From the human T2T-CHM13v2.0 reference genome, Homo sapiens: 64,000 nt of DNA. A model generated the notes under the pieces. That model saw only the letters and a list, made by a program, of their open reading frames with translations. It had not been told where the DNA came from and searched no databases. The number at the start of each line of letters is the position of its first letter. The first letter of the stretch is position 1. This document shows, in pieces, positions 1,840-31,782 of the stretch. Location of the stretch: assembly GCF_009914755.1 (NCBI RefSeq), contig NC_060926.1; one strand, given 5' to 3'. A program made the translations under genes and the position numbers.

Positions 1840-2021
1840 CTGTCTTTTAAATGCTTAGATTTGACTTGGGTTATCTGTCCACTAGAGAAATCAAATACTT
1901 CTTCACTCAAGAGTTTAAGAATCACCATATTATTTTGACAGAGACTTTCGCTGGTCCTACTTGCTCCAACAATATCACTGATAAAAGTTGGCCAATGTTT
2001 GGGCCATTCTTGTTTCAGTAT
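1840..2021 (-). CDS. XPO1: XPO1 coding exon 7, 182 nt, [60 protein letters not shown](S)
   Basis: Translation matches XPO1; acceptor ttttag at 2023-2022; non-canonical GC donor CAG|GCAAGT at 1839. Confidence 0.97.
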
Positions 2022-4386: not shown

Positions 4387-4448
4387 CTCTACACAAGTTG
4401 GGTCAGATGACGTCTTGATAATGAGGCCAACAACGTATTTTTTTATTC
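4387..4448 (-). CDS. XPO1: XPO1 coding exon 5, 62 nt, (G)IKKYVVGLIIKTSSDPTCVE
   Basis: Acceptor AG at 4450-4449, donor GAG|GTAAGA at 4386; phase 1/0. Confidence 0.97.
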
Positions 4449-17947: not shown

Positions 17948-22775
<4,828 letters not shown>

Positions 22776-24722: not shown

Positions 24723-24795
24723 CTTCGCACTGGTTCCTTGGAAGAATCTTCCACCTTGTTTTTATCACATTTTCCAAAATTTGTAGTCCATAGTA
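24723..24795 (-). CDS. XPO1: XPO1 coding exon 4, 73 nt, YYGLQILENVIKTRWKILPRNQCE(G)
   Basis: Visible inside ORF 24664..24879; acceptor ttttcag at 24797-24796, donor AAG|GTAGGA at 24722; importin-beta N-terminal (Ran-binding) region. Confidence 0.97.
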
Positions 24796-26754: not shown

Positions 26755-27030
26755 GGGCCAGGCAAAGTGGCCCTCGCCTGTAATCCCAACATTTTGGGGA
26801 GGCCAAGGCGGGAGGGCCAGGAGTTCAAGATCAGCCTGAGCAACACAGGGAGACCCCACTTCTATAAAAAAATTGGTAAGTTAGCGAGGCATGGTGACAC
26901 GCACCTGTAGCCCTAGCTACTCAGAAAGTTGAGGCAGAAATGTCACTTAAGCCCAGGAGTTTGAGGTTACAGTGAGCTATAATCACACCACTGCACTCCA
27001 GCCTGGGCAACAGAGGTCCTGTCTCTTCAA
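26755..27030 (+). mobile_element. AluJ, the only Alu in intron 3
   Basis: ggccaggcaaagtggccctcgcctgtaatccc... Confidence 0.88.
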
Positions 27031-27449
27031 AGAATTTTTTTTCTTTTTTTTTTTAGTATTTTTGCTCAAAAATCTGAAGTGACAGTCAAATCTGAAAGCC
27101 AATGATAAATCACTACAATCCAAACATTCTAAAGAATTATACTTTTGCCTTACATCTCCAAACTTGAGAAATCCACTGCTGAGTTATGAAGATGAGGGAC
27201 AGATAACAGCAAAGACTAAATGAAAAAATAAATGCATGAAATGATCCCTATGGTAGAAATTTCTACTGAGCCCTTAGAAATACTTATTTTATGCATTGAA
27301 TTCCCCTTTCCCCTCCCACCGCCCATGAAACAAAAACAATTGATGAACAGAATTCAGTTAAAGGGAATCAAAAGGGTAGACCTTGTGGAGGCCTGCCGTC
27401 AAAGCCTAGCTGTGTCAGTTGCACAGGAAGACACCCCTTTTCTTCCTAT

Positions 27450-27760
27450 TACAAGCAATCAACATAATGGAACATTATGATTAATATCAGGTAGTGTTAA
27501 CATCTTTAAAGAAAAAAAAATGATTGCATAAAAGCCAAATGTCATAGTGCATAAATTTAGCACCAAATCATTTGTAATTTATGTAAATTGAAGAATTCTT
27601 TACCTGTTGCTTTCTTTCTGTTCCTCTAATCATCTCATTTTTCACAAGACAAATTTGAGTTTTTAAAAATACTGTTGATAAATCAACTTAAACATTAGTA
27701 ATGTCTGTCAGTATAAAAAGCAAAATTTACCAGGCAAGCAAACAGGCAAACACTGTTATG
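27450..27760. other. Probable ultraconserved element uc.63 (XPO1 intron 3); boundaries approximate
   Basis: uc.63 is described as lying in XPO1 intron 3 (recalled from literature); this is the repeat-free, splice-signal-rich block of that intron. Conservation cannot be seen from one sequence. Confidence 0.6.
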
Positions 27761-28431
27761 TTACTTAAGGTTAGCACTTTGAGGAAGTTCTGGACTGTAT
27801 TTTTGACCTAAAATTTACAAGATGTCAAAACTAATTAATATTTTAAAACTGTTAATTAACAAAGTCTGGTTTCAGAAACAGATGTGAATATGGCTATCTT
27901 CTGTTTTAACACAATGTATATCAAGTGGAAACCTTTCGTGTATTAAACAGAATGCCATAGTATTTATTACTTTAAGGCAGTTTAAAGAGAAGCGTGAATC
28001 ATCAAGCCTAAAACAGACAAAACACATTTTGATCAACCCTTCTGTTCAAACTTAAAAAAGGACCAGAATTATAACATTTTCCATTGTAAATAAAAACTGA
28101 GTGCTGTCCCATTAGAAGCCCAATGCCATGGAGTAGGGTTTTAAGCTGTCCACACAACTTGGTGTCAGAGGTGCCTGGCCTGTATTATATTGATTACTTG
28201 CCCAAAATAATTCCTTAATGTTATGTTTAATCTCTGAATAACATTCAGAATTTATGCTACTTAGACCTGTATACATATACTAAAAAGAAAAAAACAAAAT
28301 CAGACAACCAAAAAAGCCACCTTGCATACTAGTCCCATTACAAAACTTCATTCATAATTCTTAGGACTATTTGCAAGAATTAATTATATGCTTAAGACTA
28401 AATTTTGAAACAAATTAACAATATAAAATAA

Positions 28432-31782
<3,351 letters not shown>

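What the first reader, a model, noticed from the sequence alone, without database searches (positions are those of the whole stretch)
27382..27447. Poison cassette C: 64-nt exon-like segment at the edge of the ultraconserved block
Seen: minus strand gattgcttgtaatag|GAAGAAAAGGGG...CCTCCACAAG|GTCTAC. It is a GC-richer island in an AT-rich intron, opens with a GAAGAA enhancer-type motif, and has a weak donor. Inclusion after exon 3 gives EEKGCLPVQLTQLGFDGRPPQ, a frameshift through exon 4, and TGA in exon 5 (4405-4403), many junctions before the last exon, which predicts NMD. Weak sites plus a conserved upstream intron are hallmarks of regulated poison exons.
Basis: partly seen in the sequence, partly recalled or inferred. 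Interest (0 to 1): 0.7.

Follow-up and report, generated by a model that had tools for sequence, protein, structure and literature searches.

The report
Known XPO1 poison exon beside uc.63
This is a real, already catalogued 64-base optional exon in the nuclear-export gene XPO1 that shifts the reading frame to an early stop and is included more in neurons, where it likely turns XPO1 down by getting the message destroyed; it sits with a second such exon at the ultraconserved element uc.63, which likely controls their splicing.

Summary
Observation confirmed, interpretation supported, and already known. Window 27445-27382 (minus) is a 64-nt exon in XPO1 intron 3; inclusion shifts the frame to a TGA at 4405-4403 in exon 5. 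It maps exactly to hg38 chr2:61525270-61525333, listed as NMD-inducing and conserved in mouse, with PSI +0.135 on cycloheximide in human iPSC neurons, FDR 1.7e-6 (PMC13078869 supplement). The mouse orthologue goes from PSI 0.22 to 0.57 on cycloheximide, tracks Xpo1 decline in differentiating neurons (r 0.945) and is named in PMC11188260. Added here: it is the second of a tandem pair. A 68-nt stop-bearing exon lies 158 nt upstream in both species, inside uc.63 (mapped to 27755-27478), and the 64-nt exon starts 32 nt past that element. No paper linking uc.63 to these exons was found in the held library. The splicing signals alone are not above chance (1,666 equally good pseudo-exons in 36 kb of XPO1 intron). 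The regulator is unknown; PTBP is not supported. Feedback from XPO1 activity is untested and, by my arithmetic, could give only about 1.1-fold in HEK293.

The parts
27382..27445 (-). Poison cassette exon C, 64 nt, frameshifting; hg38 chr2:61525270-61525333; mouse GRCm39 chr11:23218849-23218912
   Evidence: sequence, translation; human coordinates, cycloheximide response; mouse; RefSeq alternative exon in the supplied table
27604..27671 (-). Partner poison exon B, 68 nt, with an in-frame TAA at its third codon (27665-27663). RefSeq lists only 27604-27666, whose upstream bases are not AG
   Evidence: AG acceptor at 27673-27672, stop after 78 codons, 158-nt gap to C equal to the mouse gap; mouse 68-nt cassette PSI 0.038 to 0.145 on cycloheximide (day 3). 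Human inclusion from the 27671 acceptor is inferred from mouse, not seen in a human table
27478..27755 (.). Ultraconserved element uc.63 (278 bp): holds exon B with both its splice sites and branch-point-like motifs, and the U-tract and branch-point-like motifs upstream of exon C; ends 32 nt before C
   Evidence: hg19 coordinates, length; published uc.63 primers and siRNA targets match 27755-27573; ends set by taking the forward primer's first base as the element's end; the implied hg19-hg38 offset of 227,135 agrees with the value I recall
4403..4405 (-). Premature TGA in exon 5 reached when exon C is included
28532..28633 (-). Upstream constitutive exon 3 (Pfam IBN_N positions 1-32, weak match below the curated cut-off)
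24723..24795 (-). Downstream constitutive exon 4 (Pfam IBN_N positions 34-60, weak match below the curated cut-off)
27419..27454 (-). Predicted hairpin burying the acceptor AG and the GAAGA start of exon C (-12.4 kcal/mol)
   Evidence: 3.1% of shuffles fold as well; picked after inspection; no covariation test possible
27376..27397 (-). Predicted hairpin burying the exon C donor (-9.2 kcal/mol); an alternative fold extends it by pairing the exon's 5' purine run with intron +5..+12
   Evidence: 7.8% of shuffles fold as well; prediction only
27303..27324 (-). Four G-runs 58-79 nt downstream of the weak donor; candidate hnRNP F/H-type enhancer (role recalled)
   Evidence: GGG runs in the 250 nt downstream are not significantly enriched (p 0.10)
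27504..27524 (-). Second AG 58 nt upstream of the exon C acceptor, with a much stronger pyrimidine tract (0.94 against 0.56), inside uc.63; candidate alternative or decoy acceptor; use would give a 122-nt exon with a stop at 27461
   Evidence: no transcript evidence seen

Best explanation
It is a conserved, weakly defined cassette exon of XPO1 intron 3 whose inclusion shifts the frame to a stop in exon 5 and likely sends the mRNA to nonsense-mediated decay; inclusion is higher in neural cells, so it likely helps lower exportin-1 as neurons differentiate, together with a 68-nt partner exon inside uc.63. Shown by sequence: frameshift, stop position, weak donor. Shown in published tables: inclusion in human and mouse, rise on cycloheximide, nuclear enrichment flag in mouse, neural bias, correlation with falling Xpo1 mRNA in mouse. 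Inferred: that UPF1-dependent decay is the route; that roughly a quarter to a half of transcripts take this path in neurons and about a tenth or less in HEK293 and undifferentiated SH-SY5Y; that uc.63 and the length-conserved 1.1-kb intron segment are the cis-control platform; that default skipping comes from the weak, structure-buried splice sites and is overcome by a neural, PTBP-independent factor not identified here.
For: Frameshift and stop. Human: NMD_in, conserved in mouse, delta PSI +0.135 on cycloheximide in iPSC neurons, FDR 1.7e-6; NMD_in in GENCODE v43. Mouse: PSI 0.219 to 0.574 at day 6, gene up 2^1.47, flagged valid in natural samples by cycloheximide and by nuclear/cytoplasmic comparison; event-gene r 0.945, gene trend tau -0.80, flanking 100-nt PhastCons score 1; RT-PCR described as rising with differentiation, with primers that match human exons 3 and 4 at 2 and 1 mismatches. 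Steady-state mouse PSI: embryonic brain 0.05-0.07 (E11), 0.17-0.22 (E14), 0.14-0.17 (E18); 6 of 6 adult brain samples 0.06-0.17; 31 of 34 non-brain samples at or below 0.04. SH-SY5Y columns D against U (read as differentiated, undifferentiated) 0.074 against 0.009, 5 against 5, Mann-Whitney p 0.008. Spacing conserved: exon 3 to C 1,086 nt human against 1,085 mouse; B to C 158 against 158.
Against: All inhibition evidence seen is cycloheximide; I saw no UPF1, SMG6 or SMG7 data and no exon deletion for XPO1. In human iPSC neurons the PSI change explains only about 0.2-0.3 of the 1.11 log2 rise in XPO1 mRNA, and in mouse 0.87 of 1.47, so other events or general stabilisation contribute. XPO1 mRNA does not fall significantly between SH-SY5Y U and D (70 against 63 TPM, p 0.37). 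Exon C was listed at day 6 only of the three stages in which Xpo1 appears in that table. 3 of 34 non-brain mouse samples have PSI 0.08-0.15 (heart, lung, testis). The RT-PCR primers span both B and C, 68 against 64 nt, so a gel band may not separate them, and I could not see the figure. XPO1 was absent from the held supplements of three other human unproductive-splicing papers, which may be incomplete. No candidate regulator motif near C reached significance.
Confidence: 0.88

Rival explanations
1. Autoregulatory feedback: exon C and B inclusion senses XPO1 activity (directly, or through an XPO1 cargo such as a shuttling splicing factor or snRNP supply), so that loss of XPO1 causes skipping and more mRNA. 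This adds to the best explanation and does not replace it.
For: XPO1 inhibitors lower XPO1 protein and raise XPO1 mRNA (PMC8248106, passages). Tethered XPO1 activated exon inclusion in both lucMAPT reporters (PMC11389820, section 7). Poison exons at ultraconserved elements are the classic homeostatic design in SR genes (abstract listings).
Against: No splicing analysis after XPO1 inhibition was found. With the 4.8-fold decay factor derived from mouse, full skipping of C would raise mRNA only 1.05-1.10-fold in SH-SY5Y U and HEK293 and about 1.4-fold in Daoy and SH-SY5Y D. The tethering result is artificial and context-dependent by the authors' own account. XPO1 is not in the held supplement of an autoregulation screen (one small file).
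Confidence: 0.2
2. Decoy-exon or intron-detention mechanism: B and C, with the extra upstream AG, mainly act as non-productive splice sites that keep intron 3 in nuclear transcripts, and decay of spliced-in products is secondary. The reported uc.63 RNA would be this intron-containing XPO1 RNA.
For: uc.63 RNA is reported as about 2,200 nt, nuclear, same strand, identical to the XPO1 primary transcript across exon 3 and part of intron 3. A mouse event joins exon 3 extended to the B donor (1,029 nt; 1,030 in human) to exon C. Both B and C were flagged as nucleus-enriched. uc.63 siRNAs slightly lower XPO1 mRNA.
Against: Spliced inclusion junctions are measured and respond to a translation block, which points to cytoplasmic decay. 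Nuclear enrichment is also what NMD predicts. No listed paper reports XPO1 intron 3 as detained (four listings, not read). The decoy-exon model itself is recalled.
Confidence: 0.2
3. [quoted passage not shown]
For: Two papers report uc.63 as regulated independently of XPO1, with knockdown phenotypes not copied by XPO1 knockdown. Steady-state PSI in HEK293 is only 0.02. Exon C lies outside the element.
Against: No separate promoter was characterised. The uc.63 qPCR amplicon (27755-27603) and both siRNA targets lie within XPO1 pre-mRNA, and the reverse primer sits on the end of exon B. Exon lengths and spacings are conserved to within one base, and inclusion is developmentally regulated in both species. 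The supplied RefSeq table lists no enhancer at 27.4-27.8 kb.
Confidence: 0.1
4. Splicing noise or a repeat-derived cryptic exon specific to human.
For: Splice signals are no better than many pseudo-exons.
Against: Orthologous 64-nt exon in mouse with PSI up to 0.57. One match in the human genome for 27340-27800 (that search gives lower bounds). Alu-like Rfam matches lie only at 26757-27027.
Confidence: 0.02

Closest known systems
Mouse Xpo1 NMD-stimulating cassette exon, chr11:23218849-23218912 (PMC11188260; supplement rows, section 9 and passages read)
   Same: It is the orthologue: same length, same intron, same 158-nt distance to a 68-nt partner, same decay class.
   Different: The paper treats Xpo1 in one sentence as a validation example; it names no regulator (PTBP1 'n/a'), and the word ultraconserved occurs only in its reference list.
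Human XPO1 SE-NMD event chr2:61525269:61525333 (PMC13078869; supplement rows and passages read; its table also marks the exon NMD_in in Yan et al. 2015, a paper not held)
   Same: It is this exon, with the same flanking junctions.
   Different: Table entry only; XPO1 does not occur in the main text.
Ultraconserved poison exons of SR and related genes (SRSF3, TRA2B, SMNDC1; seen as search listings and abstract starts, TRA2B also in passages)
   Same: Weak cassette exon, premature stop, extreme local conservation, decay-coupled control of dosage.
   Different: Host is a nuclear export receptor and not a splicing factor; exon C lies beside the element, not in it; it works by frameshift, with the stop two exons later; it is one of a tandem pair; autoregulation is not shown; flux in HEK293 looks low.
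uc.63 transcribed ultraconserved region (PMC5482607: first two of six parts and passages; PMC5706872: passages)
   Same: Same locus and strand; the element ends 32 nt before exon C and contains exon B.
   Different: Described as an independent lncRNA; the passages read do not mention cassette exons or decay.
Chlamydomonas XPO1 (Cre03.g146487) premature-stop exon event (PMC7534427; passages read)
   Same: An exon-skipping-class event that puts a premature stop in the importin-beta N-terminal domain of XPO1 and rises in the post-mitotic phase (PSI 0.82); human B and C also interrupt that domain.
   Different: Homology of the intron position or sequence was not testable; decay was not tested there; may be convergent.

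Membership tests
NMD-inducing (poison) cassette exon | AG/GT-bounded exon that is spliced into real transcripts and can be skipped | tested here: met
   published junction-level events map exactly to it; RefSeq alternative exon
NMD-inducing (poison) cassette exon | Inclusion creates a stop more than 50-55 nt upstream of a downstream junction | tested here: met
   TGA 4405-4403; 16 nt to the 5/6 junction, 61 nt to 6/7, 243 nt to 7/8
NMD-inducing (poison) cassette exon | Inclusion isoform rises when translation-dependent decay is blocked | tested here: met
   From published tables, not my own data: +0.135 human iPSC neurons, 0.219 to 0.574 mouse; cycloheximide only
NMD-inducing (poison) cassette exon | Dependence on UPF1/SMG factors | not testable with these tools
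   No knockdown RNA-seq available; no XPO1 row in the supplements
Regulated, conserved poison exon | Conserved between human and mouse | tested here: met
   Lengths and spacings match to within 1 nt; published conservation flags. Base-level identity not testable: no vertebrate orthologue was available
Regulated, conserved poison exon | Inclusion changes with cell state and opposes host mRNA level | tested here: inconclusive
   Inclusion is neural-biased in both species; anticorrelation strong in mouse (r 0.945), not significant in SH-SY5Y (p 0.37)
Ultraconserved autoregulatory poison exon (SR-gene type) | Exon overlaps an ultraconserved element | tested here: not met
   Exon C starts 32 nt outside uc.63; partner exon B is wholly inside
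Ultraconserved autoregulatory poison exon (SR-gene type) | Host protein level feeds back on inclusion | not testable with these tools
   Only indirect hints; no splicing data after XPO1 perturbation found
PTBP-repressed neural poison exon | Responds to PTBP1/2 loss and carries PTBP motifs | tested here: not met
   PTBP1 effect 'n/a'; 0 in the Ptbp2 cKO and Linares columns; no CUCUYY in the exon or 250 nt on either side
Alu-derived cryptic exon | Overlap with an Alu or other multi-copy repeat | tested here: not met
   One genomic match; SRP/Alu-like matches only at 26757-27027; orthologue in mouse
Independent T-UCR lncRNA (uc.63) | Own promoter and ends, distinct from host pre-mRNA | not testable with these tools
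   Authors state the promoter is uncharacterised; the cloning paper was not held

The most novel reading that the evidence does not exclude
uc.63 is not a free-standing cancer lncRNA but the splicing-control element of a tandem poison-exon switch (68 + 64 nt) through which exportin-1 activity sets its own mRNA level. The switch would be thrown in post-mitotic cells, would contribute to the XPO1 mRNA rebound seen with selinexor-class drugs, and would echo a premature-stop event in the same domain of algal XPO1. The first half alone (uc.63 as the cis-element of B and C) I put at about 0.65; the feedback is the uncertain part.
Probability: 0.18. Interest if true: 0.72.

Novelty: already known. 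Interest (0 to 1): 0.3.

Why it matters
The exon itself is catalogued, so finding it again adds little. The value lies in three connections that I did not find in print in the held library (searches; most subscription papers are not covered). First, a named ultraconserved element studied as a cancer lncRNA coincides with one XPO1 poison exon and abuts a second, which gives a concrete reason for its conservation and a caution for uc.63 qPCR and siRNA work. Second, XPO1 is a dosage-sensitive gene (pLI 1) and a drug target, so an endogenous decay exon is a ready handle for splice-switching oligonucleotides in either direction. Third, the unexplained XPO1 mRNA rebound after inhibitor treatment can be checked against these junctions in existing RNA-seq.

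Tried and rejected
Regulator motifs (dinucleotide shuffles, many tests, uncorrected). Downstream 250 nt of C: YCAY 8 against 5.6 (p 0.13; 6.7% of 690 intron windows have 8 or more), SRSF3-type WCWWC 5 against 2.4 (p 0.07), GGG runs p 0.10, no TGCATG. SRSF10-type motif upstream 2 against 0.33 (p 0.045). YGCY upstream of B 5 against 1.6 (p 0.005) is the only clear excess near the exons. No regulator is claimed. Structure: the 191-nt region is no more stable than shuffles (z -0.17); local hairpins are borderline (p 0.03, 0.08) and constitutive exons 2 and 5 have donors as strongly paired; inverted-repeat search gave mainly A/T-run pairs (25 of 65 shown). Rfam: no family over B, C or uc.63. Frame rescue by including B and C together (132 nt) fails because B has its own stop. 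Supplements without XPO1 rows: PMC7347940, PMC10123112, PMC6547761; PMC8091538 main text has no XPO1 and its supplement was not searched. Papers not held: the uc.63 cloning paper, the pgFARM poison-exon screen, Yan et al. 2015. A bacterial promoter/terminator scan was irrelevant and empty. No MaxEnt or SpliceAI scoring and no vertebrate alignment were available. bioRxiv supplements and all figures could not be seen and may bear on novelty.

Full report
Observation. The minus strand at 27445-27382 carries a 64-nt segment bounded by TAG and GT, GC 0.547 in an intron of 0.25-0.38. Splicing it between exons 3 and 4 shifts the frame and reaches TGA at 4405-4403 in exon 5 after 136 codons. The stop is 408 nt from the start codon, 16 nt before the exon 5/6 junction and 61 nt before 6/7. 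The donor is the poorest of 12 XPO1 donors compared, matching the recalled consensus at 3 of 3 exonic positions and 0 of 4 at +3..+6. These signals do not pick the exon out from noise: 1,666 pseudo-exons in 36,464 nt of XPO1 intron pass the same crude thresholds, and the GAA content is as expected from shuffles. The GC island is the one distinctive local feature (1.5% of windows). The reality of the exon rests on annotation and RNA data.

It is a published decay exon in human. Supplementary Table 4a of PMC13078869 lists an XPO1 event at hg38 chr2:61525269:61525333 between exons of 102 and 73 nt. One offset (61,497,888) maps all three exons exactly to window 28532-28633, 27382-27445 and 24723-24795. 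The row reads NMD_in, conserved in mouse, delta PSI +0.135 for cycloheximide against DMSO in iPSC-derived neurons, FDR 1.7e-6, gene log2 fold change 1.11, pLI 1. Table 2 of that paper marks the mouse exon as NMD_in in Yan et al. 2015 (second-hand; that paper was not held), as found by Zhuravskaya et al. 2024, as supported by long reads at E14.5 and E18.5, and the human exon as NMD_in in GENCODE v43. A hidden sheet gives steady-state PSI: mouse embryonic brain 0.05-0.07 at E11, 0.17-0.22 at E14, 0.14-0.17 at E18; all 6 adult brain samples 0.06-0.17; 31 of 34 non-brain samples at or below 0.04, with single heart, lung and testis samples at 0.08-0.15; HEK293 0.017-0.024; Daoy 0.08-0.09; SH-SY5Y D 0.064-0.087 against U 0.004-0.021. 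I read D and U as differentiated and undifferentiated; the difference is clear (p 0.008), but XPO1 TPM differs little (63 against 70, p 0.37).

It is a published decay exon in mouse. PMC11188260 lists Xpo1 chr11:23218849-23218912 (64 nt) at day 6 of neuronal differentiation with PSI 0.574 on cycloheximide and 0.219 in control, validated in natural samples, event-gene correlation 0.945, gene trend -0.80, PhastCons 1 for the flanking 100 nt, and no predicted PTBP1 effect. The text names Xpo1 among four genes whose exons were detected by RT-PCR with rising inclusion; the primers match human exons 3 and 4. I saw the tables and text, not the figure.

A tandem pair. The same table lists a second Xpo1 cassette, 68 nt, ending 158 nt before the 64-nt exon (PSI 0.038 to 0.145 at day 3). 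In the window, the donor at 27604 lies exactly 158 nt before exon C, and an AG 68 nt upstream defines exon B as 27671-27604, with TAA at its third codon. RefSeq's 27604-27666 is five bases short and has no AG before it, so it is probably a 5'-partial model. B, C and B+C all give premature stops. The exon 3-to-C distance is 1,086 nt in human and 1,085 in mouse, whereas C to exon 4 is 2,586 against 2,220: the constrained part is the upstream kilobase. A mouse event also joins an exon 3 extended to the B donor (1,029 nt; 1,030 in human) to C; in human that extension meets a stop at 28513.

The ultraconserved block is uc.63. PMC5482607 places uc.63 (278 bp) at hg19 chr2:61752501-61752778 in XPO1 intron 3. 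Its primers and siRNA targets match the window at 27755-27734, 27626-27603, 27705-27683 and 27595-27573. Taking 27755 as one end gives 27755-27478, and the implied hg19-hg38 offset equals the one I recall. So B is inside the element and C begins 32 nt beyond it. The element also holds the U-tract, a second AG at -60 with a pyrimidine fraction of 0.94, and branch-point-like motifs upstream of C. The uc.63 RNA is described as nuclear, about 2,200 nt, same strand and identical to XPO1 primary transcript, with an uncharacterised promoter; two groups argue that it is independent of XPO1. Of the papers listed, none seen joins uc.63 to these exons; one search asked for the terms together and the 14 listed papers had no uc.63 occurrence. 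The library lacks most subscription papers.

Mechanism. Shown: frameshift, stop, inclusion, cycloheximide response, neural bias. Inferred: decay by NMD proper. The odds of inclusion rise 4.8-fold (C) and 4.3-fold (B) on cycloheximide in mouse. Applying 4.8 to steady-state human values gives a true flux of about 0.09 in HEK293, 0.04 in SH-SY5Y U and 0.28-0.30 in SH-SY5Y D and Daoy; this borrows a mouse factor and is rough. Exon C alone explains 0.87 of the 1.47 log2 rise in mouse and 0.2-0.3 of the 1.11 in human neurons, so it is one contributor among several. Default skipping fits the weak donor and poor pyrimidine tract. Folding predicts a hairpin over the acceptor and another over the donor, and an alternative fold 2.5 kcal/mol lower that frees the acceptor but still buries the donor; these are borderline against shuffles (p 0.03, 0.08), chosen after inspection, and untested for covariation. 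No trans-regulator is established: PTBP is unsupported, and NOVA-, SRSF3- and hnRNP H-type motifs downstream are present but not significantly enriched (factor names for YCAY and G-runs recalled).

Rivals. Feedback from XPO1 activity is attractive because inhibitors raise XPO1 mRNA and tethered XPO1 promotes exon inclusion in reporters, but I found no splicing data after inhibition, and the arithmetic caps the gain from skipping C at about 1.1-fold in HEK293. A decoy or detention role would explain the nuclear uc.63 RNA but is untested. An independent lncRNA does not explain conserved exon lengths, spacing and regulated inclusion. Noise or Alu origin is excluded by the mouse orthologue, the single genomic match and the Alu-like matches lying elsewhere.

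Comparison with known systems. It is a member of the conserved NMD-inducing cassette exons and is itself listed in at least two papers. It works like the ultraconserved poison exons of SR genes but fails or leaves open two of their features: C is beside the element, not in it, and autoregulation is not shown. B and C interrupt the importin-beta N-terminal domain (weak Pfam matches for exons 3 and 4), and Chlamydomonas XPO1 has a premature-stop event in that domain that peaks after mitosis at PSI 0.82; homology could not be tested.

Verdict. Already known; interest 0.3. The residual value is the link to uc.63, the tandem architecture and a cheap test of feedback in existing inhibitor RNA-seq.

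Noticed in passing
window 27604-27671 (-): RefSeq's alternative exon 27604-27666 lacks an acceptor AG; the mouse-supported exon is 68 nt from 27671. An ATG at 27633 inside it is in frame with exon 4, so re-initiation after its early stop could in principle give exportin-1 lacking the first 76 residues; no evidence that this happens.
   Followed up: partly
window 27604-28633 (-): A mouse table lists exon 3 extended by about 0.93 kb to the exon B donor and then spliced to exon C. Such an isoform would contain the published uc.63 qPCR amplicon up to the donor and is a candidate for part of the uc.63 signal.
   Followed up: partly
window 18475-18600 (-): Another RefSeq alternative exon (126 nt) between exons 4 and 5 has no AG at its listed start, has Alu-like sequence upstream by eye, and would carry an in-frame stop at 18514-18512 if spliced in.
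   Followed up: no
window 1840-2021 (-): Exon 7 has a GC donor, and the mouse 182-nt orthologue is listed as an NMD-repressing cassette, PSI 0.995 to 0.888 on cycloheximide at day 12: a further unproductive route for XPO1.
   Followed up: no
window 27672-27921 (-): Five YGCY motifs against 1.6 expected (p 0.005, uncorrected) and an ACTAAY in the 250 nt upstream of exon B, largely within uc.63; MBNL- and QKI/SF1-type sites by recall.
   Followed up: no
window 26757-27027: Alu-like sequence (SRP-family Rfam matches below gathering score) begins about 350 nt downstream of exon C; the C-to-exon-4 distance is 366 nt longer in human than in mouse.
   Followed up: no
Chlamydomonas Cre03.g146487 (PMC7534427): Algal XPO1 has a premature-stop splicing event in the same N-terminal domain, rising after mitosis.
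   Followed up: partly
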